From Planctomycetota bacterium (GTDB lineage Bacteria > Planctomycetota > Brocadiia > Brocadiales > Bathyanammoxibiaceae): a stretch of 64,000 nt of DNA. The position numbers and the translations under genes are program-made. Below are positions 8,013 through 34,278 of this stretch, in pieces. The stretch lies in the NCBI GenBank assembly GCA_016209685.1, contig JACQVQ010000008.1, positions 129,778 through 193,777 on the forward strand. The letters run 5' to 3'. Under the pieces are notes generated by a model. The model had not been told where the DNA came from and ran no database searches. It saw only the letters and a program-made list of their open reading frames with translations. Position 1 is the first letter of the stretch; every line of letters begins with the position of its first letter.

Positions 8013-8084
8013 TGGCGTGCGAATAGTGCCTGAGGTACCTGCCCGGAGTAGGGGGTAGGCCCTGCACCACCCTTGTACCACAAG

Positions 8085-8164: not shown

Positions 8165-8201
8165 TGATTGGTACAGGGGAGTAGGGTGTAGGGAGAAGAG
8201 G

Positions 8202-9614: not shown

Positions 9615-9861
9615 AAATACACATTTATGATTATTCCAGCCGCACAGTGGCTGGACTCCACACAGAACGCACACTCTAGTACACAGGCATGTATACTAGA
9701 GTATACCCACCCAGGTCTTTTATTATTAAGCACTTACACCTGTCGCCCCACGGCTTGCCAACGGGGTTGTAACAGGGCCGTCCTCATTTGCACTCACAGA
9801 AGTTGTACCAACCCCTTTACTCTCAAGAAGTTAAGAAAAGGCTTGAGGCATGGTTACTAAA

Positions 9862-9877
9862 TGGTATGTCAATTGCT
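9862..9877 (+). promoter_or_regulatory. Sigma54 (-24/-12) promoter TGGTATGTCAATTGCT
   Basis: GG (9863-9864), N10, then GC (9875-9876), matching TGGCAC-N5-TTGC at 9 of the 10 specified positions (only the C>T change in the -24 hexamer). Lies about 50 nt upstream of the 9928 ORF and downstream of a sigma54 activator gene. Confidence 0.6.
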
Positions 9878-9927
9878 ACCGTGTCTAGGGCGAGGTGGAA
9901 AACTTATATATATTTGGGTGAGATTGC

Positions 9928-10374
9928 ATGGGGGAAAAGATATTAGTGTTGGATAGTGACAGGGATCACCAGGAGAGGATTAAGTCCCTATTGAACAAGG
10001 CAGGTTACGAGACCATGACCGTGGAGGATAGATTTTCTGGACTCCAGGCCCTCAGGGAAGGTGGCAGGGATTCTTGCCTCAGGCGGGTGGGATCAGCCGA
10101 ATCGGCCACTCTCAACAGGGGAGGTTTTTCTGCAGTACTGATGAGAGAAGAGGCCAACGGCACAATCAGTGTCCATGACACGCTCCAGGATATAAAGGCC
10201 ATCTCCCCGGAGATGCCAGTGGTCGTAAGTGCTGATTCCTGGACGCCCCAGTCTCTTCAATATTGTACCGAGGTCGGGGCCTTCTTCTGTATGGATGGGG
10301 AGGCCGAAGGCGACCTCCTTGTGCAGGTGTTAAGCAAGGCGATTGAAGAATATAAACTGTCCTCAAAGTTGTAG
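9928..10374 (+). CDS. Receiver-domain-like protein lacking an obvious phospho-acceptor Asp (pseudo-receiver), with a repeat-derived insertion
   Basis: KILVLDSDRDHQERI...AGYETMTV resembles a CheY-like fold. An LMREE segment sits where DLVLLD is expected. DNA at 10066-10105 matches the GATTCTT-GCCTCAGGCGGG-...GAATC hairpin module. Confidence 0.55.
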   Translation: MGEKILVLDSDRDHQERIKSLLNKAGYETMTVEDRFSGLQALREGGRDSCLRRVGSAESATLNRGGFSAVLMREEANGTISVHDTLQDIKAISPEMPVVVSADSWTPQSLQYCTEVGAFFCMDGEAEGDLLVQVLSKAIEEYKLSSKL

Positions 10375-10398
10375 GGGCAATTCACTAGTTGCCCCTGC
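10371..10398. repeat. GTAG-headed REP-like hairpin (GTAGGGGCAA...TTGCCCCTGC)
   Basis: 7-bp stem at 10374-10380 / 10389-10395. The TAG stop of the 9928 ORF is the TAG of the GTAG head. Confidence 0.8.
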
Positions 10399-10420
10399 TT
10401 AGGTAAAAGGAGAGGGAGTT

Positions 10421-11983
10421 ATGGGATATGCGAGATGGGCAGTCGTCTTTCTGATTAGTTTAGGGTTAATAGCCCTCAGCCATACCCCTGTTTTTGCTAA
10501 GGGAGATGCAGGTGCAGGGAAGGGGGTCTTTGAAAAGAGGTGTCAGGGCTGTCACGGAGAAAAGGGAGATGGCAAGGGTCTAGCCTCCGTCTTCTTGTAC
10601 CCCAAACCTGCAGATTTTACGAGCGGCAAGTTCAAACTCCGCTCCACCCCATCCGGAGAGATGCCCACCGATGACGACCTCTTTAAGACCGTTGCTGATG
10701 GTGTCCAGGGGAGCGCCATGCCCTCCTTTGCCTATATCGCAGACGATGAGCGCTGGAACGTCATACAACACATAAAGACCCTCGCATTATATTTTGATGA
10801 GGAAGAGGGAAAGACCTACAATCTCTTTGAACTCAGGGGAGCCCCACACCCGTTAACCGTCGCCCCCGAACCGCCCATGGCCGCCGAGACCCTTGCAAAG
10901 GCGAAGGCCGTTTATGAGCAGGAAAAGCTGGGATGCGTAAAGTGCCACGGCAGGCTTGGGAAAGGGGACGGCCCATCGGCTCAGGAGCAGGTGGACGACT
11001 GGGGCAGGCCCATAAAGGTGAGAGATTTTACCACAGGCGTATTCAAGGGTGGTAATACCAACAGAGACGTTTATTTGAGGTTTGCCACCGGGATGAGCGG
11101 CACCCCAATGCCTGCCTTCTCCGGTGAACAGCTTTCGGATGCGGACCGCTGGTCATTAGTCCAATACGTCCAGTCCCTGAAGAACCCGGACGTAAGGTTG
11201 GCTACCCCACCGGCCGACGCCACCATAGTGGCCACCCAGACTAACGAGGATATCCCGGACGATAACCCCGAGGCTACGGTCTGGCAGTCAGCCAAGGAAT
11301 ACGAGATACCACTTAACAGGCTCTGGCAGCCAGAGATTCTACCCATGCACGTACGGGTCCGCGCCCTCTACAACGGCAAGGATGTGGCCATACACCTGGA
11401 GTGGGACGACGCTACCCAGAACATGGGCTATTCCCAACCGCAGACCTTTAGAGACGGCGCAGCCGTACAGTTCTCCCCCAGCGGTGAGTTTCCCTTTATA
11501 GGGATGGGTAATGGCAAGACCATGACAGGGCTGGAGATTCCTGTCAACATCTGGCACTGGAAGGGAGACTGGCAGGCAGATGCTGGCACCTATACCGACA
11601 TAAAGCACGTCTACCCGAACATGCACGTGGATACCTATTATTTCCCCAAGGAGGTACAGGATAAGACTTACCTAGCTGGTCGTGCGGCAGGCAACTTGTT
11701 TTCCAGCGACCACCGTCCCTCCGTTGTAGAAGACCTGAATGCCGTAGGTTTTGGGAGTCTAGAGTCCCAGCCTGTCAGCTCGCAGGGTGTCCAGGGGAGA
11801 GGCGACTGGTCAGATAACAAGTGGCAGGTGGTCTTAAGGCGTCCTCTGGAGTCTCAGGAGACCAGGGACGTAAAGTTCTCAAAGGGTGCTACCATCCCCG
11901 TATCCTTTGCCGTATGGGATGGTGCCCGTCAGGACAGGGACGGTATAAAGTTTGTATCTACCTGGTTTAGATTAAAAATGTAG
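10421..11983 (+). CDS. Secreted diheme cytochrome c fused to an NxrC/EbdC-like (DMSO reductase family type II gamma, heme b) domain
   Basis: Signal peptide, CQGCH and CVKCH motifs in the N-terminal half. The C-terminal half (WQS..YEIPL...HLEWDD...GAAVQF...FAVWDG) resembles the ethylbenzene dehydrogenase gamma / NxrC fold. The gene sits directly upstream of nxrA-like. Confidence 0.7.
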   Translation: MGYARWAVVFLISLGLIALSHTPVFAKGDAGAGKGVFEKRCQGCHGEKGDGKGLASVFLYPKPADFTSGKFKLRSTPSGEMPTDDDLFKTVADGVQGSAMPSFAYIADDERWNVIQHIKTLALYFDEEEGKTYNLFELRGAPHPLTVAPEPPMAAETLAKAKAVYEQEKLGCVKCHGRLGKGDGPSAQEQVDDWGRPIKVRDFTTGVFKGGNTNRDVYLRFATGMSGTPMPAFSGEQLSDADRWSLVQYVQSLKNPDVRLATPPADATIVATQTNEDIPDDNPEATVWQSAKEYEIPLNRLWQPEILPMHVRVRALYNGKDVAIHLEWDDATQNMGYSQPQTFRDGAAVQFSPSGEFPFIGMGNGKTMTGLEIPVNIWHWKGDWQADAGTYTDIKHVYPNMHVDTYYFPKEVQDKTYLAGRAAGNLFSSDHRPSVVEDLNAVGFGSLESQPVSSQGVQGRGDWSDNKWQVVLRRPLESQETRDVKFSKGATIPVSFAVWDGARQDRDGIKFVSTWFRLKM

Positions 11984-12062
11984 CGTTACCGTTTATACCC
12001 GAGGACAGGAAGCTTCAGGCAGGATTTTGACCTGACCAACCATAGAGGGAGGATAAGAGATA

Positions 12063-15000
12063 ATGGAGATTTCCAGACGCGACTTCCTAAGATATACAGG
12101 GATGGCCACAGGAGGCGCCATGGCCACGGGCCTGAAGCTCCGCTTCCTGGAGGCCCAGACGGAGATTCCTAACCCCCTTGAACACTACCCCGATAGAAAC
12201 TGGGAGAAGGTCTACAGGGACCAGTATTCCTATGATAGGACCTTTACCTTCTGCTGTGTACCTAACGATACCCATAACTGCCGTCTAAAAGCCTTTGTGA
12301 GGAACGGCGTTGTAACAAGGATAGAGCAGAACTACGACAGCCACCTGGTGGAAGATCTCCATGGTAACAAATGCACCCCAATGTGGAACCCTCGTGGTTG
12401 CCTTAAGGGATATACATTGGTCAGGCGGGTATACGGCCCTTACAGGATAAAATATCCCATGGTACGGAAGGGCTGGATGGAGTGGGCAGAAAATGGCTTC
12501 CCTGACCCCAACACTCCAGAGAACCAGGAGAAATACTTCCAGAGGGACAGGGATACCTGGGTAAGGGCATCCTGGGACTACGCCTTCACCCTCGTGGCCA
12601 GGGGCCTGCTCCGCATAATGTCTACCTATGGAGGTGAGGAAGGGGCCAAACTCCTCAGGAAGCAGGGCTATCCGGAGGAGATGATTGAGGCCGCCCATGG
12701 TACAGGTGCCCGTTGCATAAAGATTCGCCCAGGGATGGGATTTCTGGGGATGACCCGTATTTACGGTTCAGTTGTGCGCTTCTGCAATATGCTGGGCCTT
12801 TATGACGGCAAGGGTGGTGCGCGTAACTGGTCTAACTATACGTGGCACGGAGATTTGGGTCCTGGGCATCCCATGGTCTCAGGCATACAGACCTTTGACT
12901 CAGACCTCAACGACTTCCGCCATGCCAAGCTCATGGTCTTCAGTGGAAAGAACATGGTGGAAAACAAGATGCCCGATGCCCACTGGTGGATAGAGATAAT
13001 GGAGAGGGGCGGGAAGATTGTAAATATTTCCCCCGAGTACAGCCCAGCCTCCCAAAAGGCCGATTATTGGGTACCAGTAAGGCCAGGTTCTGACGTGGCA
13101 CTCATGATGGGAGTGGTCCATCTACTGATAAAGAACAACTGGTACGAGGTGGACTTCGTAAAACAATACACCGACTTGCCACTACTGGTGAGGCTGGATA
13201 ATTTGAAAATCCTGCGGGCCGCAGACATTATTTCTGGCTATAAGAACAAGGAACTCACCGGTTACAGCAAGAAGGTGCAGATTATAGACCCTCAGATGAG
13301 AGAAGACTGGGGCGACTTTGTGGTCTGGGATACCAAGAGCAATGGCCCCAAGGTGATAACCAGGGAAGACGTTGGCAAACACTTTGCCGCTATAGGCATT
13401 GACCCCGCCCTGGAAGGGAGCTTCAAGGTCAAGACTGCGGATGGCAAGGAGATAGAGGTAAAACCCTCGTTCCAGCTCTACAAAGAACTCTGCGCCGAGT
13501 ACGACCCTGCCACCGTCCAGGAGATAACCAGCACCCCCAAGGAGATGATAGAACAGCTGGCCAAGGACTTTGCCACCATAAAGCCAGCCATGATTCATAC
13601 AGGCGAGGGTACCAACCACTACTTCCACTGCGACATAAAGGACAGGGTCAACTTCCTTATACTGGCGCTCACCGGCAACTTCGGCAAGCCAGGGGGAGGT
13701 CCCGGCCACTGGGCAGGAAATTACAAGATTTCCGTCTTCCCGGGGTCATACGTGATGATGGGAGAGGACCCCTTCCACGTTAACCTGGACCCCAATGCTA
13801 AGGTGGAGGACATCAAGGTAAAGAAGTACTTCAAACCAGAAGAAGTGTGCTACTGGAACTACCAGGACAACATCCTGAAGGTAAATGGGAAGTGTTTTAC
13901 CGGCCAAACCCACATGCCCACTCCCACCAAGGTTATATGGTTTGCCAACGTGAACCTCATCAATAACGCCAAGTGGGCCTATGAGATGATTTACAACACC
14001 AATAAGAGGGTGGAGATGATAGTGGCCCAGGACTGGGAGTGGACGGGTAGCTGTGAGGTCTCAGACATCGTCTTCCCTGTCCACAGCTGGATGGAACTGA
14101 CACAGCCAGATTTTACCGCCTCCTGTTCCAACCCCTTCCTCCAAGTCTGGAAGGGTGGGATAAAACCACTTTACGACACTAAGCAAGATAGCGAGATATA
14201 TGCGGGAGTGGCTTGCAAGCTGGCGGAGCTTACCGGGGACAACCGTTACAGGGATTACTGGAAGTTTATCCTGGAAGGGAAGACAGAGGTATACATACAG
14301 CGGATGTTTGACGCCTGTATTACTACCCAGGGTTATAAGGTAGATGAACTCCTCAAGCAAGACCGTGGCGCCCTACTGCTCTTCCGCACCTACCCGAGGA
14401 TAACGGGTTGGGAGCAGATTCAAGAATCCAAGCCCTTCTACAACAAGACCGGAAGGCTTGAGTTCTACAGGGACGAGGACGAGTTCATTGAATACGGAGA
14501 GAACCTCATAGTCTTCCGTGAACCAGTGGAGGCCACACCCTATCTGCCCAACGTCATAGTGGGCACCCATCCGGCCATAAGGCCCAATGATTACGGTATA
14601 CCTTTGACCGCCACCGGTGCAGATGAGCGGTCTGTAAGGAACGTGAAGATGTCCTGGAAAGAGGTTAAGAAGACCAAGAACTTCCTGTGGGAGAAGGGTT
14701 ATCGTTTCTACTGCCTCACCCCCAAGACCAGGCACAGGGTGCACTCCTCCTGGAGCAACTCAGACTGGAACCTTATATGGGACAGCAACTACGGAGACCC
14801 CTACCGTATGGACAAGAGAACCCCAGGGGTGGGCGAACACCAAATCCATCTGAACCCAGAAGATGCCAGAGAGTTGGGCATCAACGATGGCGACTATGTA
14901 TATGCGGACGCCAACCCTGATGACAGGCCCTACGTGGGTTGGAAGCCCACCGACCCCAATTACAAGGTGTCACGCCTGATGCTCAGGGTGAAATACAATC

Positions 15001-15416: not shown

Positions 15417-15429
15417 AGGCAAATATTGT

Positions 15430-15458
15430 GTAGGGGCGACCCGGCGGGTCGCCCCTAC
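15430..15458. repeat. REP-like hairpin GTAGGGGCGACCCGGCGGGTCGCCCCTAC
   Basis: Near-perfect palindrome with GTAG/CTAC heads, intercistronic between nxrA and nxrB. Confidence 0.85.
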
Positions 15459-15478
15459 TTAGGATTAGGAGGAATCTA

Positions 15479-16648
15479 ATGACAAAGGTTTACAATTGGC
15501 AGCTGGGGCGGGAGATGGAATACCCGTACGAGGCCGCCCGCCCAAAGAGACAATTCGCTGCGGTCTTCAATATAAACCGTTGTATAGCCTGTCAGACCTG
15601 TACCATGGCCTGTAAGAGCACCTGGACCTTCTCTAAGGGGCAGGAGTTCATGTGGTGGAACAACGTGGAGACCAAGCCTTTTGGAGGCTTCCCGCAGTCC
15701 TGGGACTCCAAGGCCCTCCAGCTCCTTGGCCCGCAACCAGGTTGGGATGCCGGCAGTAAGGCACATGATTCTCCCCATGGAAAGTACAAAGGGGAGACCC
15801 TATTTGAGGCCGCCGGCAAGAGGATTGACGCCAGCGGACAACAGGCCCTGGGATACGTCCCTGAGGATAAGGAATGGCGCGCCCCTAACTTCTTTGAAGA
15901 TACCGCCAACCGTTCCCCCAAGACCGTTAATGGCGTACAGGAAGGGGCCATGCTCCCTGAACACCAGATATTCTTTTTCTACCTGCAGAGGATTTGTAAC
16001 CACTGCACCTACCCTGCCTGTCTGGCGGCCTGTCCCAGGAAGGCCATATATAAGAGGCCAGAGGACGGTATAGTCCTCATAGACCAGAGCCGCTGCCGGG
16101 GTTACAGGAAGTGCGTGGAACAGTGTCCCTATAAGAAACCTATGTTTAACGGGCAGACCAGGGTCTCTGAGAAGTGTATAGCCTGTTATCCCAGGGTGGA
16201 GGGGAAAGACCCCATGAGCGAGGGAGACCCCATGGTCACCCGTTGTATATCAGCCTGTGTGGGGAAGATAAGACTACAGGGCTGGGTGGATGACCCGGAT
16301 AGCCCTGTCCATTACCTGGTGAGGAAAGAGAAGGTGGCCTTGCCCTTGTATCCCCAGTTCGGGACTGAGCCTAACGTGTATTATATACCGCCCAGGTGGG
16401 CCCCGAGGGGCTATCTACATCAGATGTTTGGCCCTGGTGTGGACGAGGCTATTGCCAAGTACACTAAACCTTCCCACGAACTCCTGTCCGTACTGCAGCT
16501 CTTTGGTGTAACGCAGAAGCTCATCTACTGCTACGAGGTCACCGCAGACACCATCATTGCCTACGGCAGGGAGCATAAGGAGATTATGAGGGTACCCGTC
16601 AACGAGGCCGTGCTCGTCAGGGATGAGAAGTACCTGAACGTTACTTAA
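15479..16648 (+). CDS. nxrB: Fe-S beta subunit of NXR-like enzyme
   Basis: MTKVYNWQLGREMEYPYE..., ferredoxin-type motifs CIACQTCTMACK, CNHCTYPACLAACP and CRGYRKCVEQCP. RBS AGGAGG. Confidence 0.85.
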   Translation: MTKVYNWQLGREMEYPYEAARPKRQFAAVFNINRCIACQTCTMACKSTWTFSKGQEFMWWNNVETKPFGGFPQSWDSKALQLLGPQPGWDAGSKAHDSPHGKYKGETLFEAAGKRIDASGQQALGYVPEDKEWRAPNFFEDTANRSPKTVNGVQEGAMLPEHQIFFFYLQRICNHCTYPACLAACPRKAIYKRPEDGIVLIDQSRCRGYRKCVEQCPYKKPMFNGQTRVSEKCIACYPRVEGKDPMSEGDPMVTRCISACVGKIRLQGWVDDPDSPVHYLVRKEKVALPLYPQFGTEPNVYYIPPRWAPRGYLHQMFGPGVDEAIAKYTKPSHELLSVLQLFGVTQKLIYCYEVTADTIIAYGREHKEIMRVPVNEAVLVRDEKYLNVT

Positions 16649-16656
16649 AAATACCC

Positions 16657-16710
16657 GTAGTCGCAGGCTTTAGCCTGCGTGAAGTAACGCAACCTAAAGG
16701 TTGCGGCTAC
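16657..16710. repeat. Paired REP-like hairpins (GTAGTCGCAGGCTTTAGCCTGCG ... CGCAACCTAAAGGTTGCGGCTAC)
   Basis: Two hairpins in inverted orientation with GTAG/CTAC heads. Related single hairpins occur at 49444-49467 and 55036-55058. Confidence 0.8.
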
Positions 16711-16727
16711 TATACAAGGAGACGTTG

Positions 16728-17504
16728 ATGCAAGAAGCTGGGAAAGAGGTTGTGGTGAAAGAATCCCCTGACGAAGAGAGGGCCCAAAAGGCCCTGGCCA
16801 GGAGCAGTTTCTATGGCATCCTGTCCAGGGGCTTCGCCTATCCCACCGAAGAGGTTCTGGGGGAGATAAAGGCAGGTGCCACCTCCAACGAGCTAAAGGG
16901 TTCGGCCGCCTGCCTGGGGGAGGGACTCTTGCAATCCGTGGAGGCCCTCTGTGAGGCTATGGAGAGGGAGATAGCCCCCCTCGGACTGAGGGAGGTGGAG
17001 GGAGGCTATAACAGGATATTCTCCATGGGTCTCCTGTGTCCCCATCATGAGACGTTTTACACCTCTGCCCATGTCTTTATGAAAAGCCAGGATCTGGCAG
17101 ACATCCAGGGCTTTTACAATGCCTTCGGTTTCCGTCTCGCAGAGGAACAAAAGGAACTGGCGGACTTTATAGGGACTGAGCTGGAGTTCATGTACGTCCT
17201 TTGCTTTAAGGAGTACCATGCAATAAAAAAGGGTGAGAAAGATAAGGCCGACCTCTGCCGTGAGGCCCAGGCCAAGTTTGTGGAAGGACATATTGGCACA
17301 TGGACAGAGGCCTTCTCTATGACTCTCACGGTTAGTTCGCACATGGACTACTTTATAACCCTGGGGAGGTTGTTAGAAAAGTTTGTGGATTTTGATTGCC
17401 AGTATCTCGGAGTGGCTCCCAAGAAGGTATCGGCGCCGGAAGAGGGATGGAAAAGAGAGACGGAGCCGCTCAGTTGTGGAGAAGATATACAAGGACTGAA
17501 GTAA
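16728..17504 (+). CDS. TorD/NarJ-like redox enzyme maturation chaperone (NxrD-like)
   Basis: ARSSFYGILSRGFAYPTEE motif, typical of this chaperone family. I start it at ATG 16728 (RBS AAGGAGA) rather than the track's TTG at 16701, which lies inside the REP element. Confidence 0.65.
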   Translation: MQEAGKEVVVKESPDEERAQKALARSSFYGILSRGFAYPTEEVLGEIKAGATSNELKGSAACLGEGLLQSVEALCEAMEREIAPLGLREVEGGYNRIFSMGLLCPHHETFYTSAHVFMKSQDLADIQGFYNAFGFRLAEEQKELADFIGTELEFMYVLCFKEYHAIKKGEKDKADLCREAQAKFVEGHIGTWTEAFSMTLTVSSHMDYFITLGRLLEKFVDFDCQYLGVAPKKVSAPEEGWKRETEPLSCGEDIQGLK

Positions 17505-17576
17505 TGGATTCATTCAATAATCCAGCTCCTTCCTTTGATATAAAACTCTAAGGATAGACACTGAAGGAGATTGTTA

Positions 17577-18137
17577 GTGGAGACGAATACGGCGAAGGTG
17601 GACGAGAAAGCTGCAGTTGTGGAAGCTGGCCCCCTTAAAAAGGAAATTGGGCTGGGGATAGGGGGCCGGCGTTCCTTTCTTTTAAAGCTGGGTTGGGCAG
17701 GTTTTGCCCTCTTCCTATCTGCATGGATGGTCTCCTTTATGAGATTGTTCTTCCCGCGGTGCCTCTTTGAGCCTCCTATGACCTTTAAGGCAGGTTACCC
17801 GTGGGAGTATACGGTCGGCGTAGTAAGCACGAGGTTCCAGAAGGAGTACAGGGTATGGATAGTAAGAGAGGGCGAGGGTTTTTACGCCCTGTTTGGCCAG
17901 TGCACCCACCTGGGCTGTACGCCTGTATGGTGGGAGGGGGAGAATAAATTCAAGTGCCCCTGCCACGGGAGTGGTTTTACCAAGGAGGGGATAAACTACG
18001 AGGGCCCGGCGCCAAGACCCCTGGAAAGGGTGAAGGTGACCCTGGCGGCCGATGGGCAGTTGCTCGTAGATAAGTCCATTCGCTTCCGGCAGGAAAGGGG
18101 CGAATGGGAGAAACAAGGGGCCTTCCTCAAGGTATAA
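17577..18137 (+). CDS. Rieske [2Fe-2S] protein of a cytochrome bc/b6f-type complex
   Basis: CTHLGC...CPCHGS boxes and an N-terminal TM anchor. GTG 17577 has better spacing to the GAAGGAGA RBS than the track's TTG 17571. Confidence 0.85.
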
Positions 18138-18186
18138 AGTCCTCAATACTGTATCTGCCTGGGCGTTATCCTCAAGGGAAAGACTA

Positions 18187-18963
18187 ATGTTGACAGAACA
18201 AAGAGAAAAGATAAAGGAAATCATTACTGAATCGCAGGTATACAAGTCCATCTTCCGTAGAGGTTTTGAGGACACCACAAAGAACCGCGTCCTGGCCATC
18301 TTCGGCAACGTATTCCTCCATCTACATCCACCTTACGTAAAGAGACATGCGCTGAAATTCACCCATAGCTGGTGTATGGGTGGTATAACCTTCCTGCTCT
18401 TTTTAGTCCTCTGCTTTACCGGGGTGTTCCTGTGTTTCTATTATCATCCCGATAAGATTAATGCCTACAGGGACATGAAGTATTTTGAGTACGACGTCCC
18501 CTTCGGGGTGGTACTGAGGAACATGCACCGTTGGGCCGCCCACTTGATGGTCATCACCGTGTGGCTCCATATGACCAGGGTCTTTATGACCGGGTCTTAT
18601 AAACCTCCGAGGGAGTTTAACTGGGTAGTAGGGGTATTGTTGCTGGTCTTGACCCTGCTCCTTAGTTTTACGGGCTATTTACTGACGGATGACCAGTTGG
18701 GTTTCTGGGCCGTGACGGTGGGTACCAATATGGCCAGGGCTACGCCACTACTGGGCCACGAGGGACCTTTTGGGGAACAGTTGGGAGTTACGGCCTACAA
18801 CGACATACGCTTTGCCCTCCTCGGTGGTTCGGTGGTGGGTGGTAATGCCCTGCTCAGGGCCTATGTATGGCACTGCGTGGCCATGCCTGTAACTGCCATC
18901 CTCTTCCTGGCCGTACACTTCTGGAGGACTAGAAAAGACGGTGGCACGGCAGGGCCACTATAA
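18187..18963 (+). CDS. Cytochrome b, N-terminal (b6-like) half
   Basis: Helix B carries H-x13-H ([16 protein letters not shown]) and helix D carries H-x14-H ([17 protein letters not shown]). The 14-residue spacing is the b6-type signature. Confidence 0.85.
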
Positions 18964-19020
18964 AAATTTGGGTTCAAGGGTTCAATCCACCTCAGGCGGA
19001 AAAGGTTTAAGGTAAAGTCC

Positions 19021-19995
19021 ATGTGGCACAATATATTTAAGATAGCCAGTAAGCCGGATAACATCCCCATCGTGGGGATGCTCCTCCTCGTCTTCTTCTT
19101 TTGGTTCCTCTCCTTCTGGGCGGCCTTTAAAAATGACCGTATAAGAAGGGCCGCGGCCGGCAGGCCGAGACCGGAGGGTGGAAAGTCCAAAGGGGATGTG
19201 GTGGACGTAATAGATTTTATGTACCCGGAGGAAGAGCAAGGGCTACCCAAAAAGGTCAGTTGCTGGCCCCATCTGGTGAAGCTGGAGTTTGTATGTGCCA
19301 TAGCCGTTATGGCACTGCTCATGTTCTGGTCTATCCCTATAGACGCACCCCTGGAGGAGCCTTCAGACTCCACCCTTACCCCCAACCCCTCCAAGGCGCC
19401 CTGGTACTTCCTGGGATTACAAGACATGCTGGTGTACTTTGACCCATGGATTGCAGGGGTACTGCTCCCCACTTTTATTATAGTGGGGCTGATGGTCATA
19501 CCTTATGTGGACGTAAACCCCAAGGGTAATGGTTACTACACCTTTGCCGAGAGGCCCTTTGCCATACTGGTATACTGGTTCGGTTTCTTTGTGTTATGGG
19601 TCTTGGAGATAGTCATTGGCACGTTCTGCCGTGGGCCGGGGTGGATGTTCTTCTGGCCGGGCCAGGAATGGGACCCCCACAGGGTAGTGGCAGAGGTGAA
19701 CATTAACTGGAACGAGTTCCTGGCAAACATTAGCGGTATTACGGCCCTGAAGACGGAGACGGCGGGCCTCCTTTTGGGGATAGTTACAATCCTGGCCTAT
19801 TTCGGGCTGGGGACGGCATTGCCCTATCTCTGGCTCAAGAGGCAGGAGGCACCCATAATACACCGTCTGGGACTCATCCGCTACGGCGTGGTGGGCTTCT
19901 TCTTCTGGACTATGATGGCCTTGCCCATCAAGATAGTCCTCAGGCTCATGTTTTCTATCAAGTATATCCTGGTTACACCCTGGTTTAACATATGA
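19021..19995 (+). CDS. Cytochrome b C-terminal (subunit IV-like) half with extra TM helices
   Basis: PNPSKAPWYFLGLQ motif (the PEWY-equivalent region), polytopic, directly after the b6-like gene. Confidence 0.75.
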   Translation: MWHNIFKIASKPDNIPIVGMLLLVFFFWFLSFWAAFKNDRIRRAAAGRPRPEGGKSKGDVVDVIDFMYPEEEQGLPKKVSCWPHLVKLEFVCAIAVMALLMFWSIPIDAPLEEPSDSTLTPNPSKAPWYFLGLQDMLVYFDPWIAGVLLPTFIIVGLMVIPYVDVNPKGNGYYTFAERPFAILVYWFGFFVLWVLEIVIGTFCRGPGWMFFWPGQEWDPHRVVAEVNINWNEFLANISGITALKTETAGLLLGIVTILAYFGLGTALPYLWLKRQEAPIIHRLGLIRYGVVGFFFWTMMALPIKIVLRLMFSIKYILVTPWFNI

Positions 19996-22850
19996 GTAAA
20001 AGAGATCCCATAGAAGAAAAATCTTTTGCGTGGCTGTTTGCCCTGACCATCTCTCTGCTCCTTATCAGTACCCTGTGGGCGATGTACGATGAGGTAATAG
20101 GGAGGAGGCCCTGGAAGCACTATCAGCGGGAATTCCTGGCCGTGGCCGATGGGAAATCCCAGCAGGAGCTGAAGGTGGCCACCGAGGCCCAGGCTACTGA
20201 ACAGTACAAGGGGCTCAGACAGGAGTACGATAGGGTTATTAAGGCCCTGGAGGCCAATCCGGAGAGGAATAAAAATATAGCCGAACTGAAAAGGCTGGAT
20301 AAAGAACTGGCCGAGCATATCCACGAATTACAGCTCCATAGGGGTGAGTATCAGGCCACCGTGTACGTGATGGAAAAGGCCGAGGAGGCGAGTAAAAGCA
20401 AACTCCTCCACGATGCCCAGGGGCTAGAGCCGTGCATTGAAGAACTCTCTACCAAGATGGCCACCATGCAAAGACGCAAGAAAGAGCTTCGGGCGGAACT
20501 AAAGGAGATGTCCAGAGAAAAAGAGGCCCTGGAGGAGAAACTACTGGCCTACGAGGACCGCCTAAAGGGTATACAGCGCTTCAGGGAGGCGTTAAAAAAG
20601 AAGAAGGTAGAGATAAAACAGATAGTGAATGACGAGTTGGGGGTCATAGACCGCTGTCATAGCTGTCACGCCGGTGTGGCCACAAAGGGCTTTGAGGAGA
20701 TCCAACAACCCCTCAAGACCCACTCCATGGTGGTAGGCCTACCAGCCCTTGCCCCTGGGCTGCCAGAAAGGGGCATACTGGACGCCCATCCCATAGAGAC
20801 CTTTGGCTGTACCCCGTGTCATAGAGGGCAGGGTTACGCCACCACCACTGCCCAAAAGGCCCATGGAGAACTGGAGTATGTCCTCACCCCCCTCCTCAGG
20901 GGCAAATACAACCAGGCTACCTGCTTCAAGTGCCATGACTACGAGATAGACATCCCCGGGGGTGAGGTGGTGTCATTGGGGAGGAAACTGTTCCATGAAT
21001 ATGGTTGTATTGGGTGTCACTCAGTAGGGGCCCTGGAGAGGGAGGACAAGACCCGTTACATAGGCCCGACCCTTGACGAGATTGGCAGTAAGGTATACCC
21101 AGAGTGGATTACCCCCTGGATAAATAACCCTAAAGAATTCAGGGCTGACACCAAGATGCCACGCTTCTTCCTAAGCCCGGAGGAGATAAGAAACGTAGCC
21201 TCCTACCTCTGGCAGATAGCTCAGAAGACCTCCGAGCCCTTAAATGTGCCCAAATTTGAGGCGGAGATGGTGCAATCAGGCAAGAACCGCTTTGAGAAGA
21301 CGGGGTGTCTGGGTTGTCACAAGATAGGAGACAGGGGGGGACAGTTTGCCCCCAACCTTACCAATATAGGAGAGAAGGCCCGCTACGACTACCTGGTGGA
21401 CTGGATAGCCGACCCGAAGAAACACCAGCCCCAGGGCCGTATGCCCAGCCTCCGCCTGGGTAAGGAAGAGGCAGGAGAGATAGCGGCCTACCTCACCACC
21501 CTCAGGACAAAAGAGCCAGGCGGTAAACATGAGGACTTCGGTGACCCCAGTAAGGCCGAGGCAGGTTTTGCCCTGGTGGCCAGATACGGATGCTTTGGCT
21601 GTCACAGGATAAAGGGTATGGAAGATAGGGGTAAGATTGGGGCAGACCTTTCAGACGAGGGCGTCAAGCCCATAGAGCGGTTTGATTTTGCCTTGCTTGA
21701 ACATGAGATTATGCACAAGATAGGGCTGGAAACCCCCAGGGACGAGGTGGCAAAGGCAAGGATGGCCTGGCTCACTACTAAACTTAAAGACCCCAGGATA
21801 TATGATACGGGTAAATACAAGAAACCAGAGGATAAGCTCCGTATGCCCAACGGCGGGTTGAACGACCAGGAGGCACAGGCCCTTGTTACGTTTATCATGG
21901 GGCTTACGGGCGAGAAGGTCTCTCCTAAATTTAAACGCAATCTCTCAGAGCAGGACAAGGCCGTCGTGGATGGCACCTTCCTCATCAGGAGATATAACTG
22001 TGTAGGATGCCATCCCTTCACACTGGAGAGGCTAACCCTGGCCGACGGCACCAAGGTGGAGGGTATGACCAAGATGGAGGAGGAGGGCACCCTGTTCTTC
22101 CAGCTCTGGCGGGATTACCCGGAGATGGGGAAGAAACTGGGAGAGAACATTGCAGTAGAGCTGACGGAGGTAAAGGGGCGTGTCCCTACCATGGGAGGGG
22201 AGATAGTCCCACTGATTATAGGGAAGATGGAAGAAGAGGAGGGTCTGGTGCCTGAGGAGGCCAGGGCCTTTGCCCCCCCCTTCCTTTATGGAGAGGGAAA
22301 GAGGGTACAGGCCGACTGGCTGTACAGGTTCGTCCAGGCCCCCATACCTCTGAGACCCTGGCTAAACGTAAAGATGCCCACCTTTGGTCTTAGTAAAGAG
22401 GAGGCTAACACACTGGCCAAATATTTTGCCCTTCTTGAACATCAGGAGTATCCTTATGAACGACTACAGGAGAGAGAGAGGGCCTACGTGGACTCAAGGT
22501 GCTCCAAGGATGCAGACTATTATATGAAGGCCAAACACCTCATGGACTCCAAGGACGTGAACTGCGGCTCCTGCCATGTCCGTGGGGAATTGAAGCCCTC
22601 CGGAGACCCCTCTGGTTGGGCGCCTGATTTGTCCCTGGCCAGGGAACGCCTGAGACCCAACTGGATAAAGGAGTGGCTTACCGACCCCCAGAGGATACAG
22701 GTAGGCACAAAGATGCCCAAGTTTCCATGGGGAGAGTTCCAGGACACATTCCCAGGCAGCGCCGGAGACCAGGTGGAGGCCCTGAAGGATTTGATTATGA
22801 GCCCTGGGGATTTATTGACCAAGTCACCTGCGGAATTGGCTAAGAGGTGA
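19992..22850 (+). CDS. Membrane-anchored octaheme cytochrome c
   Basis: Eight CxxCH motifs (CHSCH, CTPCH, CFKCH, CIGCH, CLGCH, CFGCH, CVGCH, CGSCH). N-terminal TM helix plus coiled coil. ATGA overlap with the preceding gene. Confidence 0.85.
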   Translation: MSKRDPIEEKSFAWLFALTISLLLISTLWAMYDEVIGRRPWKHYQREFLAVADGKSQQELKVATEAQATEQYKGLRQEYDRVIKALEANPERNKNIAELKRLDKELAEHIHELQLHRGEYQATVYVMEKAEEASKSKLLHDAQGLEPCIEELSTKMATMQRRKKELRAELKEMSREKEALEEKLLAYEDRLKGIQRFREALKKKKVEIKQIVNDELGVIDRCHSCHAGVATKGFEEIQQPLKTHSMVVGLPALAPGLPERGILDAHPIETFGCTPCHRGQGYATTTAQKAHGELEYVLTPLLRGKYNQATCFKCHDYEIDIPGGEVVSLGRKLFHEYGCIGCHSVGALEREDKTRYIGPTLDEIGSKVYPEWITPWINNPKEFRADTKMPRFFLSPEEIRNVASYLWQIAQKTSEPLNVPKFEAEMVQSGKNRFEKTGCLGCHKIGDRGGQFAPNLTNIGEKARYDYLVDWIADPKKHQPQGRMPSLRLGKEEAGEIAAYLTTLRTKEPGGKHEDFGDPSKAEAGFALVARYGCFGCHRIKGMEDRGKIGADLSDEGVKPIERFDFALLEHEIMHKIGLETPRDEVAKARMAWLTTKLKDPRIYDTGKYKKPEDKLRMPNGGLNDQEAQALVTFIMGLTGEKVSPKFKRNLSEQDKAVVDGTFLIRRYNCVGCHPFTLERLTLADGTKVEGMTKMEEEGTLFFQLWRDYPEMGKKLGENIAVELTEVKGRVPTMGGEIVPLIIGKMEEEEGLVPEEARAFAPPFLYGEGKRVQADWLYRFVQAPIPLRPWLNVKMPTFGLSKEEANTLAKYFALLEHQEYPYERLQERERAYVDSRCSKDADYYMKAKHLMDSKDVNCGSCHVRGELKPSGDPSGWAPDLSLARERLRPNWIKEWLTDPQRIQVGTKMPKFPWGEFQDTFPGSAGDQVEALKDLIMSPGDLLTKSPAELAKR

Positions 22851-22860
22851 GAAAATAGCT

Positions 22861-22901
22861 GTAGGGGCATCCGCCGTAGGGGCGAACGGCCGTTCGCCCC
22901 T
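22861..22901. repeat. Double GTAG REP-like element ending the long operon
   Basis: GTAGGGGCATCCGCC followed by GTAGGGGCGAACGGCCGTTCGCCCCT (22-nt perfect palindrome at 22879-22900). Confidence 0.8.
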
Positions 22902-23130
22902 CCCCCCCCAACTGTCTCAGGTAGTACACTCTAGCATGTAAATAAGGCGTATAAGGGTGTATCTCAGTAACATATGTGTTATCAGAGACTTATATCTTTA
23001 AGGCGATTATAGCCCTGTACAAAGTGTGACCAGGACTACACATGGCCTTTTCTTGCCTGTTTATAGATGTATAGTCCTAACCATTTTGTCTCCAATATAT
23101 TATGATAATTACCAGTTACTTATCAAGAAT

Positions 23131-23145
23131 TGGTACGCTAATTGT
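23131..23145 (+). promoter_or_regulatory. Possible second sigma54-type promoter TGGTACGCTAATTGT
   Basis: Same spacing as, and high similarity to, the 9862 element, but -12 is TTGT rather than TTGC. Lies about 65 nt upstream of the ferredoxin gene. Confidence 0.35.
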
Positions 23146-23208
23146 GGATAGTTCCCCGACTAGAGCTGTATAGCTGGATATCCAGACTAACTGCTAAGGA
23201 GGACAAAT

Positions 23209-23676: not shown

Positions 23677-23735
23677 GATTTGTTGAAAATCCGCCTCAGG
23701 CGGGCTACAGTGATTCTGCACCCGGAGGGAAACCG

Positions 23736-24542: not shown

Positions 24543-24762
24543 TCCGCCTGCGGCGGATAAAGAATTATCCAGCCCGTTTTGCGTCTTCACCGAGGTTCTG
24601 CCCGCTTAAGGACTGCAACGAAGACGCCTGTAGGGCTGGCTTGAAGGGCCTTCTGTAAAGGAGGCCTTTTTTGTTTCCAGGGGTTACCGTAACAGTAGAC
24701 AGAATATAGAACTGGGGCTCTGTCCCTAGCTAACTCACACCATAAAAGTTCAGGATTAACAG

Positions 24763-34277: not shown

Positions 34278-34278
34278 G

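What the first reader, a model, noticed from the sequence alone, without database searches (positions are those of the whole stretch)
9862..22850. NXR-like molybdoenzyme genes fused into one apparent operon with a Rieske/split-cytochrome-b complex and an octaheme cytochrome c, under a sigma54 promoter
Nine same-strand genes run from a sigma54 -24/-12 element: pseudo-receiver, diheme-c::NxrC-like, TAT-exported NxrA-like, NxrB-like, TorD-like chaperone, Rieske, b6-like cytochrome b, subunit-IV-like protein and an 8-heme cytochrome c.
- Gaps between genes are 46-82 nt or are overlaps, and several gaps are filled only by REP-like hairpins.
- Periplasmic NXR-type enzymes are normally discussed as donating to or receiving from soluble cytochromes or an NxrC anchor. 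A hard-wired genetic link to a quinol-interacting bc-type complex with a large multiheme subunit suggests a dedicated nitrite:quinone (reverse electron flow) or quinol:nitrate module.
- An adjacent histidine kinase and NtrC-type activator probably control it.
- I cannot tell from sequence whether this exact synteny has already been described.
Basis: partly seen in the sequence, partly recalled or inferred. Interest (0 to 1): 0.75.

Follow-up and report, generated by a model that had tools for sequence, protein, structure and literature searches.

The report
NXR genes joined to a bc-complex
In a deep-branching relative of anammox bacteria, the genes for the nitrite/nitrate enzyme NXR sit in one conserved, jointly regulated cluster with a quinol-oxidising Rieske/cytochrome b complex, which points to how this enzyme connects to the membrane's electron pool.

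Summary
From 9928 to 22850 (+ strand) lie a weak receiver-like ORF, a diheme-c::NxrC fusion, a TAT-exported NxrA, NxrB, a chaperone, a Rieske protein, a b6-like cytochrome b, a subunit-IV-like protein and a membrane-anchored octaheme cytochrome c.

- **NxrA identity:** it is 57% identical over its full length to the solved Kuenenia NxrA, and the active-site residues are kept.
- **Extent:** the unit runs two genes further, to a polyferredoxin and a cupredoxin-like protein. It ends at the only strong terminator (24643-24670).
- **Source:** a Brocadiales lineage (Bathyanammoxibiaceae/Hypogeohydataceae-type, close to RIFCSPHIGHO2_12_FULL_52_36).
- **Conservation:** gene order, the upstream kinase/NtrC pair, the sigma54 -24/-12 element and an upstream palindrome are conserved in every related MAG with a long enough contig.
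- **Second case:** another Planctomycetota lineage has a compact NXR/Nar-like + Rieske/cyt b operon built on a different NxrA clade.
- **Contrast:** Kuenenia-type clusters and the closest non-Brocadiales NxrA loci have no Rieske/cyt b genes nearby.

The parts are known. The Rieske/split-b/octaheme operon is described in Nitrospina, Kuenenia and Methylomirabilis, and a Rieske/cyt b-Nar cluster is known in haloarchaea. I found no paper describing this merger.

Best reading: a reversible nitrite/nitrate:menaquinone chain running through c-type hemes. The direction is unresolved.

The parts
6291..8012 (+). Sensor histidine kinase (PilS-like 6TM, PAS, HisKA, HATPase)
   Evidence: Pfam. Syntenic upstream of the cluster in L010-L014, L021, L027 and L066; weaker HK matches (33-43% identity) also lie upstream in L076, L031 and L046.
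8202..9614 (+). NtrC-type sigma54 activator (receiver + AAA+ Sigma54_activat + HTH_8)
   Evidence: Pfam E 1.6e-68; TIGR01818 2.5e-128. Syntenic in all related loci that reach this far.
9669..9706 (+). Conserved upstream palindromic block GCACAC-N5-GTACACA-N4-TGTrTAC, a candidate activator binding site about 190 nt upstream of -24
   Evidence: Inverted repeat I5. The block is conserved across 9 loci while its flanks diverge. Binding is inferred, not shown.
9862..9877 (+). Sigma54 -24/-12 promoter element TGGTATGTCAATTGCT
   Evidence: Unique in the window, 0.22 expected. AATGGTATGnnAATTGC is invariant in 9 loci. An analogous TGGCATGATTCTTGCT lies upstream of NxrA in L076.
9928..10374 (+). g1: 148-aa receiver-like protein, no phospho-acceptor Asp evident
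   Evidence: Pfam Response_reg E 7e-4, N-terminal 45 residues only, below the cut-off. Present at 46-57% identity in L010, L012, L013 and L066; absent in L014 and L021.
10421..11983 (+). g2: Sec-exported diheme cytochrome c fused to NxrC (heme b subunit)
   Evidence: CxxCH at residues 41 and 172. The N-terminal half matches 6H5L chain B, E 1.3e-59. This is the diheme partner Kustc0457; the chain assignment is from my own knowledge, and one search shows only that 6H5L is a Kuenenia HAO entry. The C-terminal half matches Kuenenia NXR-C, E 6e-32. The heme b ligands Met155 and Lys305 align to Met and Lys (PMC8387239).
12063..15416 (+). g3: NxrA, TAT-exported Mo-bisMGD catalytic subunit
   Evidence: 7b04_B 1440 bits over the full length. 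57.1% identical to Kuenenia NxrA. D264, N68, D69 and C65 align with Kuenenia D275, N70, D71 and C67.
15430..15458 (+). GC-rich perfect palindrome (REP-like) in the nxrA-nxrB gap, with no T-run after it
   Evidence: Present only in the window's genus (L011, L027) and absent from other genera.
15479..16648 (+). g4: NxrB, Fe-S subunit
   Evidence: TIGR03478 E 4e-85; Fer4_11.
16701..17504 (+). g5: NarJ/TorD-type assembly chaperone (an alternative ATG start lies at 16728)
   Evidence: PF02613 E 2e-20; TIGR03482 5e-28.
17571..18137 (+). g6: Rieske 2Fe-2S protein with an RR motif and a membrane anchor
   Evidence: CTHLGC...CPCHGSGF. b6f PetC-type NCBIfam hits. 52% identical to the Rieske protein of L076.
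18187..18963 (+). g7: cytochrome b6-like (split cytochrome b, N-terminal part)
   Evidence: PF00033 1e-39; ExtP NF040969 1.5e-77. Aligns with cytochrome b6 (2.6e-38), with WCMGGIT matching YCLGGIT, the heme ci cysteine. His pairs H-x13-H and H-x14-H.
19021..19995 (+). g8: subunit-IV-like membrane protein, six predicted transmembrane segments, Qo motif APWY in place of PEWY
   Evidence: ExtQ NF040970 4e-13; PetD-like. Alignment to b6f subunit IV.
19992..22850 (+). g9: membrane-anchored octaheme cytochrome c (TM helix, about 165-residue helical linker, 3 hemes with conserved His candidates for the sixth ligand + 5 class-I-like hemes)
   Evidence: 8 CxxCH motifs, all invariant in 37 homologues along with five Met-Pro motifs. 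AF2 model pLDDT 82.7. 4-nt overlap with g8.
22877..22902 (+). Second REP-like palindrome, inside a genus-specific 358-nt spacer
23131..23146 (+). Sigma54-like element TGGTACGCTAATTGTG (the -12 element is GT, not GC); a possible internal promoter in this genus only
   Evidence: An ACACTCTAG motif lies at the same spacing (about 197 nt) as in the main promoter. Function unknown.
23209..23676 (+). g10: cytoplasmic polyferredoxin (four CxxCxxCxxxC motifs, no signal peptide)
   Evidence: Pfam Fer4 families. It follows g9 within 10-20 nt in other genera. 52% identical to the ferredoxin that immediately precedes Rieske in the unrelated locus L079.
23736..24542 (+). g11: exported cupredoxin-like + CarboxypepD_reg-like protein
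   Evidence: H156, C193, H196 and M199 are invariant in 7 homologues. Homologues sit next to NxrA in the Kuenenia-type cluster L081 and next to R/b-octaheme modules in L079 and L080.
24643..24680 (+). Intrinsic terminator (12-bp stem plus T-run), the likely end of the unit
   Evidence: Best + strand terminator in 5800-25200. tRNA-Ala follows at 24856.

Best explanation
A sigma54/NtrC-controlled gene cluster of 10-11 genes merges two modules that lie at separate loci in classical anammox bacteria.

**Module 1** is a periplasmic (anammoxosome-side) nitrite oxidoreductase: NxrA, NxrB, a chaperone, and an NxrC whose heme b domain carries a fused diheme cytochrome c.

**Module 2** is a b6f-like Rieske/split-cytochrome-b complex. 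Its cytochrome c subunit is a membrane-anchored octaheme protein. It comes with a cupredoxin on the outer (p) side and a polyferredoxin on the cytoplasmic (n) side.

**Proposed chain:** Mo centre - five Fe-S clusters - NxrC heme b - two fused c hemes - octaheme c and/or cupredoxin - Rieske cluster - Qo site of cytochrome b - menaquinone pool. This couples the nitrite/nitrate couple to the quinone pool.

**Shown here:** the gene anatomy, cofactor motifs, topology signals, conserved synteny and the conserved promoter.

**Inferred:** that the products exchange electrons directly, and in which direction.

**My split on direction:**
- About 50%: quinol to nitrate with a Q-cycle. This is energetically well matched and resembles haloarchaeal pNar.
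- About 35%: nitrite oxidation feeding the c-heme hub, which also receives quinol electrons and supplies nitrite reduction and hydrazine synthesis.
- About 15%: pmf-driven reverse flow from nitrite into the quinone pool.
For: - Domain and cofactor anatomy.
- All exported parts carry Sec or TAT signals, and the polyferredoxin has none.
- Identical gene order from the kinase to the cupredoxin in every related Brocadiales MAG with enough contig: Avalokitesvara, Bathyanammoxibius, JP1, nzgw511, RIFCSPHIGHO2_12_FULL_52_36 and others.
- Gaps of 10-60 nt, or overlaps, in all genera.
- A single conserved sigma54 promoter with an upstream palindrome, and a single strong terminator after g11.
- A second Planctomycetota lineage (L076, L028) has built the same kind of operon on a different NxrA clade (46-48% identity). 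There NxrC is again fused to a c-type heme domain, and gaps are -41 to 25 nt.
- Relatives of the Rieske/b/octaheme module without NXR sit next to terminal oxidases, so it behaves as a complex III that feeds terminal reductases.
- Precedent: the haloarchaeal Rieske/cyt b-Nar cluster, with antimycin-sensitive growth on nitrate (PMC3509893, PMC4683180).
- The redox partner of anammox NXR-C is explicitly unknown, and the heme is surface accessible (PMC8387239).
Against: - There are no transcript, protein or activity data.
- Co-transcription does not prove a physical complex or direct electron transfer.
- In the window's genus, a 358-nt spacer with a sigma54-like element separates g9 from g10-g11.
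- Kuenenia NXR forms soluble tubules rather than a membrane complex (PMC8387239).
- The closest non-Brocadiales NxrA loci, including those with the same diheme::NxrC fusion, have no Rieske/cyt b genes within 10 kb. The fusion therefore does not by itself imply a bc partner.
- The Qo motif is atypical (APWY).
Confidence: 0.6

Rival explanations
1. Co-regulation only. NXR and the Rieske/b complex are expressed together because both deliver electrons to the same soluble high-potential carrier pool (cytochromes c, cupredoxin) that feeds nitrite reduction and hydrazine synthesis. They do not pass electrons to each other and do not form a complex.
For: - Chicano et al. propose that NXR electrons go to the NO-forming nitrite reductase (PMC8387239).
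- The fused N-terminal domain of g2 is about 50% identical to chain B of 6H5L. From my own knowledge this is Kustc0457, the diheme partner of the nitrite-reducing HAO; PMC8042395 describes that partnership.
- Classical anammox genomes keep the two modules at separate loci (PMC3578206).
Against: - Two independent lineages fused the modules into tight operons. In both, NxrC gained c-heme domains, which suits docking to a c-type partner encoded next door.
- The haloarchaeal precedent argues for direct coupling.
Confidence: 0.25
2. The molybdoenzyme is not a nitrite/nitrate enzyme. It acts on another oxyanion or substrate (chlorate, perchlorate, selenate, or a hydrocarbon as with EBDH), and the Rieske/b complex is its quinol-oxidising donor.
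For: - The NCBIfam type II DMSO reductase models hit below their curated cut-offs.
- The NxrA clade is a sister of the canonical NXR clade, not inside it.
Against: - Kuenenia NxrA scores 1440 bits, against 255 for PcrA and 152 for EbdA.
- The Mo-ligand Asp, the substrate Asn70 equivalent and the unusual 3Cys/1Asp FS0 are conserved.
- The clade includes genera that are cultured nitrate reducers from my own knowledge.
- Published annotation treats it as the NXR of these anammox families (PMC9723696).
Confidence: 0.05
3. The unit is split. The GC-rich hairpin after nxrA and the spacer before g10 act as terminators or promoters, so the cluster is really two or three transcripts that happen to be adjacent.
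For: - A strong palindrome at 15430-15458 (-30 kcal/mol).
- A 358-nt spacer with a sigma54-like element at 23131.
Against: - Both features are confined to one genus. Other genera have 33-57 nt without a stable hairpin between nxrA and nxrB, and 10-20 nt between g9 and g10.
- The hairpin lacks a T-run.
- Gene order is invariant.
Confidence: 0.1

Closest known systems
Kuenenia stuttgartiensis NXR (NXR-A/B/C, kustd1700/1703/1704; PDB 7B04) and its nxr gene cluster
   Same: - NxrA is homologous over its full length (57% identity), with the same Mo-ligand Asp, substrate Asn and 3Cys/1Asp FS0.
- NxrC keeps the Met/Lys heme b ligands.
- Same export signals and the same chaperone type.
- A g11-type cupredoxin-like protein also flanks NxrA in a Kuenenia-type cluster.
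   Different: - The NxrA clade is a sister of the canonical anammox clade, not part of it (PMC9723696).
- NxrC carries an N-terminal diheme c domain that the Kuenenia type lacks (322 aa, EB_dh only).
- The Kuenenia-type locus examined has no Rieske/cyt b genes within 10 kb, and no NXR-T-like gene was seen here.
Rieske / split cytochrome b / octaheme cytochrome c operon of Nitrospina gracilis, Ca. Kuenenia stuttgartiensis and Ca. Methylomirabilis oxyfera (Lücker et al. 2013, PMC3578206)
   Same: - Same three-part architecture: Rieske, b6-like cytochrome b plus subunit IV, and an atypical octaheme cytochrome c.
- g9 homologues include a Nitrospinota protein.
   Different: - In those organisms the operon stands alone; here it is downstream of nxr genes under one promoter.
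- I did not verify orthology of g9 with the Nitrospina or Kuenenia octahemes.
- The accessory polyferredoxin and cupredoxin genes were not part of the published description that I read.
Haloarchaeal Rieske/cytb-Nar gene cluster (Rieske - cyt b - hyp - NarG - NarH; PMC3509893)
   Same: - A periplasm-facing, TAT-exported Nar-type Mo enzyme is encoded together with a Rieske/cyt b complex.
- The proposed path is quinol to Rieske/b to a periplasmic cytochrome to NarH/NarG.
- Growth on nitrate is sensitive to antimycin A.
   Different: - Different gene order.
- The cytochrome b there is unsplit and of the Actinobacteria/Thermus type.
- There is no octaheme c and no c-heme fusion on the gamma subunit.
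- The Mo-subunit clade is different.
- The host is an aerobic or denitrifying archaeon rather than an anammox-lineage planctomycete.
Kustc0457, the diheme cytochrome c partner of the nitrite-reducing HAO Kustc0458 (PDB 6H5L; the assignment of chain B to Kustc0457 is from my own knowledge)
   Same: Residues 32-257 of g2 align along the whole chain at about 50% identity, E 1.3e-59.
   Different: - Here the domain is covalently fused to NxrC instead of docking on an HAO.
- The same fusion occurs in Ignavibacteria and a Deltaproteobacteria MAG that are not anammox bacteria.
Geobacter ExtP/ExtQ/ExtS (cytochrome b, membrane partner and c-type lipoprotein of the selenite/tellurite-reduction ext cluster; NCBIfam NF040969-71)
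   Same: - g7 hits ExtP at 1.5e-77, g8 hits ExtQ at 4e-13, and g9 weakly hits ExtS.
- This is another case of a b6-like module written into an operon with a dedicated terminal electron-transfer system.
   Different: - Scores are below the equivalog cut-offs.
- The partner system there is an outer-membrane conduit, not a Mo enzyme.

Membership tests
Periplasmic NXR (type II DMSO reductase family, Nitrospira/Nitrospina/anammox type) | Catalytic subunit homologous over its full length to a functionally characterised NxrA | tested here: met
   7b04_B 1440 bits over residues 1-1116; 57.1% identity.
Periplasmic NXR (type II DMSO reductase family, Nitrospira/Nitrospina/anammox type) | TAT signal on NxrA (outward-facing active site) | tested here: met
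   MEISRRDFLRYTG at the N terminus. The Pfam TAT_signal match is E 0.004, below the cut-off.
Periplasmic NXR (type II DMSO reductase family, Nitrospira/Nitrospina/anammox type) | Mo-ligand Asp, substrate-positioning Asn, FS0 with 3Cys/1Asp as in KsNXR-A | tested here: met
   D264, N68, D69, C65 and C73 align with Kuenenia D275, N70, D71, C67 and C75 (residue roles from PMC8387239).
Periplasmic NXR (type II DMSO reductase family, Nitrospira/Nitrospina/anammox type) | Gamma subunit with Met/Lys-ligated heme b (EB_dh fold) | tested here: met
   EB_dh E 2e-28. Met and Lys align with Met155 and Lys305 of NXR-C.
Periplasmic NXR (type II DMSO reductase family, Nitrospira/Nitrospina/anammox type) | Branches inside the clade of enzymes shown to oxidise nitrite | tested here: not met
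   In the NJ tree it is sister to the Kuenenia/Brocadia/NC10 clade. It groups with Ignavibacteria, Chloroflexota, Symbiobacterium and Caldinitratiruptor, in line with Zhao et al. 2022 (PMC9723696). This is an NJ tree only, without Nitrospira, Nitrospina, NarG or EbdA references.
Periplasmic NXR (type II DMSO reductase family, Nitrospira/Nitrospina/anammox type) | Nitrite-oxidising / nitrate-reducing activity | not testable with these tools
   Needs an enzyme assay.
Rieske/cytochrome b complex, b6f-like ('green clade') | Rieske cluster-binding boxes CxHxGC and CxCHGS | tested here: met
   CTHLGC and CPCHGS are present in g6.
Rieske/cytochrome b complex, b6f-like ('green clade') | Four heme-ligand histidines in helices B and D, with b6-type H-x14-H spacing in helix D | tested here: met
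   Read directly from the sequence. Alignment to cytochrome b6, E 2.6e-38.
Rieske/cytochrome b complex, b6f-like ('green clade') | Split cytochrome b plus subunit IV, and the cysteine that binds heme ci | tested here: met
   g7 and g8 are separate genes. WCMGGIT aligns with YCLGGIT of b6. g8 aligns with PetD.
Rieske/cytochrome b complex, b6f-like ('green clade') | Canonical PEWY Qo motif | tested here: not met
   APWY aligns with PEWY, a variant Qo site.
Rieske/cytb-Nar type coupling (haloarchaeal pNar model) | Rieske/cyt b genes and outward-facing Nar/NXR genes in one conserved cluster | tested here: met
Rieske/cytb-Nar type coupling (haloarchaeal pNar model) | Nitrate respiration that depends on quinol and is blocked by bc inhibitors | not testable with these tools
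   Physiology only. Shown for Haloferax according to PMC3509893.
Sigma54-dependent operon with a cognate enhancer-binding protein | GG/GC elements at the -24/-12 spacing, conserved in orthologous loci | tested here: met
Sigma54-dependent operon with a cognate enhancer-binding protein | Adjacent activator with a Sigma54_activat AAA+ domain and a conserved upstream binding-site candidate | tested here: met
   Binding itself was not tested.
Sigma54-dependent operon with a cognate enhancer-binding protein | rpoN present in the genome; transcription start mapped | not tested
   rpoN is not in the window and no transcript data are available.

The most novel reading that the evidence does not exclude
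The cluster encodes a true NXR-b6f-type supercomplex with a polyferredoxin on the cytoplasmic side. With it, deep-branching anammox bacteria of nitrite-poor aquifers and sediments could respire nitrate with quinol, making their own nitrite and conserving energy through a Q-cycle. That would amount to nitrate-fed anammox in one cell. Run backwards, or in a bifurcating mode through heme ci and the polyferredoxin, it could lift nitrite-derived electrons to quinone or ferredoxin for CO2 fixation.
Probability: 0.2. Interest if true: 0.85.

Novelty: new variant of a known kind. Interest (0 to 1): 0.6.

Why it matters
How NXR is wired into the rest of the respiratory chain is an acknowledged gap. The 2021 structure paper states that the way anammox NXR hands electrons to its redox partners is not understood.

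Here evolution has written the candidate partners into the same regulated gene cluster, in at least two lineages:
- a c-heme extension on NxrC;
- an octaheme cytochrome;
- a cupredoxin;
- a Rieske/b complex.

That gives concrete, testable partners for NXR in anammox bacteria. By homology of the Rieske/b/octaheme module, it also gives candidates for nitrite oxidisers such as Nitrospina.

It also bears on the ecology of the Bathyanammoxibiaceae-type anammox bacteria. They live in nitrate-rich, nitrite-poor subsurface settings and lack NirS and NirK. A quinol:nitrate mode would let them make their own nitrite.

Tried and rejected
- **Rfam scan of the window:** only one tRNA, no riboswitch or leader in the cluster.
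- **g11 identity:** a PDB sequence search and NCBIfam gave nothing significant. The cupredoxin call rests on the invariant H/C/H/M pattern.
- **g9 fold:** the AF2 model's best PDB match is Kustd1711 of the Kuenenia nxr cluster, but it is weak (E 6e-4, TM 0.31). A sequence search with the C-terminal third found no such hit. I do not claim homology.
- **Naming g9 relatives:** cluster look-ups gave Acidobacteria, Marinimicrobia and Bacteroidota, not Kuenenia or Nitrospina. Orthology with the published octahemes is unverified.
- **Genome scan bias:** the GTDB scan used exact peptide words from this NxrA. It missed canonical Nitrospira, Nitrospina and Kuenenia loci. It is a biased sample, not a census.
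- **Hairpins as REP elements splitting the operon:** considered and rejected, because they are genus-specific and lack T-runs.
- **The diheme::NxrC fusion as a marker of bc coupling:** considered and rejected, because Ignavibacteria have the fusion without nearby Rieske/b genes.
- **Literature:** searches for a description of this synteny in Bathyanammoxibiaceae, Avalokitesvara or Hypogeohydataceae found only statements that NXR is present and NxrC is divergent.

Full report
**1. The observation**

ORF listing and profile searches confirm nine co-directional genes between 9928 and 22850:

- g1: a 148-aa protein with only a weak match to the N-terminal part of a receiver domain.
- g2: 520 aa, with a Sec signal and two CxxCH motifs, followed by an EB_dh/NxrC domain.
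- g3: a 1117-aa molybdopterin subunit with an RRDFL TAT motif.
- g4: an Fe-S subunit.
- g5: a NarJ/TorD-type chaperone.
- g6: a Rieske protein (CTHLGC...CPCHGS).
- g7: a b6-like cytochrome b.
- g8: a subunit-IV-like protein with six predicted transmembrane segments.
- g9: a 952-aa protein with one N-terminal transmembrane helix and eight CxxCH motifs.

Gaps between genes are 46-79 nt. g8 and g9 overlap by four bases.

**2. What the molybdoenzyme is**

Against all solved structures, g3 matches Kuenenia stuttgartiensis NXR-A over its whole length. It scores 1440 bits, against 255 for perchlorate reductase, 163 for E. coli NarG and 152 for ethylbenzene dehydrogenase.

Aligned with Kuenenia NxrA it is 57.1% identical. 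It keeps the Mo-ligand Asp275, the substrate Asn70 and the unusual FS0 ligands Cys67, Asp71 and Cys75 (residue roles from Chicano et al. 2021, PMC8387239).

The C-terminal half of g2 matches NXR-C (E 6e-32). The residues aligned with the heme b ligands Met155 and Lys305 are Met and Lys. The refutation condition 'groups with non-nitrogen oxyanion or hydrocarbon enzymes' is therefore not met.

In a neighbour-joining tree, however, the protein does not fall inside the Kuenenia/Brocadia/NC10-type clade. It falls in a sister clade with proteins from Ignavibacteria, Bacteroidota, Chloroflexota, Thermoplasmata, Symbiobacterium and Caldinitratiruptor (62-68% identity). This agrees with the published remark that Bathyanammoxibiaceae NxrA clusters apart from that of classical anammox bacteria (PMC9723696). 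Symbiobacterium and Caldinitratiruptor are nitrate reducers from my own knowledge. Phylogeny therefore does not settle the direction of catalysis.

**3. Whose genome this is**

The exact NxrA occurs in two recent MAGs. The closest relatives of NxrA and of g9 are as follows:

| MAG or taxon | Protein compared | Identity |
|---|---|---|
| RIFCSPHIGHO2_12_FULL_52_36 | NxrA | 98% |
| 'Brocadiaceae bacterium Yes70-17' | NxrA | 98% |
| Brocadiia bacterium JP1 | NxrA | 87% |
| Ca. Hypogeohydataceae YC40 | g9 | 85% |
| Ca. Avalokitesvara rifleensis | g9 | 66% |
| Ca. Bathyanammoxibius | g9 | 65% |

These are the deep-branching anammox families described from sediments and aquifers (PMC9723696; bioRxiv 2023.04.27.538623).

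**4. Synteny**

Contexts came from look-ups of g9 homologues and a scan of GTDB species genomes with NxrA. I then ran tblastn with all window proteins against the 77 fetched loci.

Every locus of this Brocadiales clade that is long enough has the same order:

kinase - NtrC - [g1] - diheme::NxrC - NxrA - NxrB - chaperone - Rieske - b6 - subunit IV - octaheme c - [polyferredoxin] - cupredoxin-like protein

g1 is missing in the Bathyanammoxibius-like loci. The polyferredoxin is missing in one genus.

By contrast, the following have no Rieske/b genes within 10 kb:
- the closest non-Brocadiales NxrA loci (Ignavibacteria, Chloroflexota, Clostridia);
- a Kuenenia-type cluster, with the order NxrC - NxrB - chaperone - 317-aa protein - NxrA - cupredoxin-like protein.

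The scan used exact peptide words, so it is a biased sample rather than a census.

**5. A second, independent case**

Two 'uncultured Planctomycetia' MAGs (L028, L076) carry an NxrA-like gene only 46-48% identical to the window's. It lies in the clade of the Methanoperedens Nar-like enzyme.

The L076 operon is very compact, with gaps of -41 to 25 nt:

kinase - NtrC - sigma54 element - NxrA - NxrB - chaperone - NxrC::monoheme c - Rieske - unsplit cytochrome b - pentaheme c - monoheme c

Its Rieske protein is 52% identical to the window's and its cytochrome b 61%. So a related Rieske/b module has been joined to two different NXR/Nar clades. In both, the gamma subunit has gained c-type heme domains.

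**6. The Rieske/b module**

- g7 aligns with cytochrome b6 (E 2.6e-38). The alignment includes the cysteine that binds heme ci, and the histidine spacing is b6-type.
- g8 aligns with b6f subunit IV, but carries APWY in place of PEWY.
- All eight heme motifs of g9 are invariant in 37 homologues, and so are five Met-Pro motifs. This suggests five class-I (His/Met) hemes plus three N-terminal c7-like hemes, for which conserved histidines are candidate sixth ligands.
- An AF2 model of g9 (pLDDT 82.7) shows a transmembrane helix, about 165 residues of helices, and then the heme domains.
- More distant g9 homologues sit in Rieske - b6 - subunit IV - octaheme modules without NXR. One lies next to COX1/COX2 genes and one next to a bd-like oxidase. 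They again come with the polyferredoxin (52% identical to g10) and the cupredoxin-like protein.

g10 and g11 therefore belong to this module. The module behaves elsewhere as a complex III that feeds terminal reductases.

Lücker et al. [quoted passage not shown] They found it as a conserved operon in Nitrospina, Kuenenia and Methylomirabilis (PMC3578206).

**7. Regulation and transcript structure**

- TGGTATGTCAATTGCT at 9862 is the only sigma54-type match in the window (0.22 expected).
- AATGGTATGnnAATTGC is invariant in nine loci spanning several genera, while the flanks diverge.
- A palindromic block about 190 nt upstream (9669-9706) is also conserved.
- The kinase and the NtrC-type activator are syntenic throughout.
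- The only convincing + strand terminator lies after g11, at 24643-24670, followed by tRNA-Ala.
- The GC-rich palindrome between nxrA and nxrB (15430-15458) and a related one after g9 (22877-22902) occur only in the window's genus. Neither has a T-run.
- The same genus has a 358-nt spacer before g10. It carries a sigma54-like element with a GT at -12, and an ACACTCTAG motif at the same spacing as in the main promoter. Other genera have 10-20 nt at this point. This may be a secondary promoter. It does not affect the nxr - Rieske/b linkage.

**8. How it most likely works**

Topology signals place these parts on the outer (anammoxosome or periplasmic) side: NxrAB (TAT), diheme::NxrC (Sec), the Rieske domain, the octaheme domain and the cupredoxin. 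The polyferredoxin lies on the cytoplasmic side.

The simplest chain is: Mo - Fe-S clusters - heme b - two c hemes - octaheme c and/or cupredoxin - Rieske - Qo - menaquinone.

On direction I can only argue from established energetics (inference):

- **Quinol to nitrate.** This spans about +0.49 V. It matches the roughly 2 H+/e- conserved by a Q-cycle, as proposed for haloarchaeal pNar. There the Rieske/cyt b and Nar genes also share a cluster, and growth on nitrate is antimycin sensitive (PMC3509893, PMC4683180).
- **Nitrite to menaquinone.** The reverse would need about 0.49 V per electron, more than two protons at a normal pmf can supply under standard conditions.
- **Nitrite oxidation.** An anammox cell must nevertheless oxidise nitrite. 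Chicano et al. argue that NXR electrons go to the NO-forming nitrite reductase. The diheme domain fused to NxrC is about 50% identical to chain B of 6H5L, the partner of the nitrite-reducing HAO. The chain assignment is from my own knowledge.

I therefore favour a reversible module with the octaheme protein as a junction. My estimates are quinol to nitrate about 50%, NXR feeding the c-heme hub about 35%, and true reverse flow into the quinone pool about 15%.

**9. Comparison with what is known, and novelty**

Each component belongs to a known family. The principle of an outward-facing Nar-type enzyme written together with a Rieske/b complex is known from haloarchaea. The Rieske/split-b/octaheme operon is known from Nitrospina, Kuenenia and Methylomirabilis.

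What I could not find described is the merger itself. The papers I searched cover:
- the Bathyanammoxibiaceae, Subterrananammoxibiaceae and aquifer anammox families;
- the evolution of anammox enzymes;
- the Kuenenia NXR structure and cytochromes.

The merger puts a periplasmic NXR-type enzyme and this octaheme Rieske/b module into one sigma54/NtrC-controlled cluster. It is conserved across the deep-branching anammox families and paralleled in a second Planctomycetota lineage.

I rate it a new variant of a known kind, of moderate to high interest. It names concrete candidate redox partners for NXR, which is an openly acknowledged unknown.

**10. Limits**

- No expression, protein or activity data were available.
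- The tree is neighbour-joining and lacks Nitrospira, Nitrospina, NarG and EbdA sequences.
- The genome scan was biased by its word patterns.
- The window holds no hzs or hdh genes, so the anammox nature of this particular organism rests on its relatives.
- The library searched does not include most subscription-journal papers.

Noticed in passing
window 33726-36340 (- strand): cbb3-type oxidase genes (ccoN 34279-35871, ccoO 33726-34277) plus a small c-type cytochrome, about 10 kb from the cluster. This is an oxygen reductase in a genome from an anammox-related lineage.
   Followed up: partly
window 22851-23208: A genus-specific 358-nt spacer between g9 and g10. It carries a REP-like palindrome, a sigma54-like element TGGTACGCTAATTGTG (23131) and an ACACTCTAG motif at the same spacing as in the main promoter. 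Other genera have only 10-20 nt here.
   Followed up: partly
L076 3745-15451 and L028: An independent, very compact operon in 'uncultured Planctomycetia' MAGs: kinase - NtrC - sigma54 element - NxrA-like (Methanoperedens-Nar clade) - NxrB - chaperone - NxrC::monoheme c - Rieske - unsplit cytochrome b - pentaheme c - monoheme c.
   Followed up: partly
window 23736-24542; L081 12158-12886; L079 3933-4679; L080 2366-2983 and 8082-8828: A family of exported cupredoxin-like + CarboxypepD_reg-like proteins with invariant His/Cys/His/Met. Members occur next to NxrA in a Kuenenia-type cluster and next to Rieske/b/octaheme modules coupled to heme-copper or bd-like oxidases.
   Followed up: partly
L016 15883-17604, L017, L072: The diheme-c::NxrC fusion is not confined to Brocadiales. 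It also occurs in Ignavibacteria and a Deltaproteobacteria MAG, with no Rieske/b genes within 10 kb.
   Followed up: partly
window 30000-34000, 45673-48810, 58410-60128: A low-GC stretch (0.40-0.45 against about 0.51) with an HTH + DNA methylase gene. Elsewhere there is a Type ISP restriction-modification enzyme and an N4/N6 methyltransferase with HNH repeats. The window thus holds several defence or mobile-looking genes.
   Followed up: no
window 19992-22850 (model m475394f2715b): The AF2 model of the octaheme protein has, as its best PDB fold match, Kustd1711, the diheme cytochrome of the Kuenenia nxr cluster. The match is weak (E 6e-4, TM 0.31) and has no sequence-level support.
   Followed up: yes
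window 39778-44099: A MoxR AAA+ ATPase - DUF58 - BatA/VWA gene cluster (aerotolerance-type operon) on the + strand.
   Followed up: no
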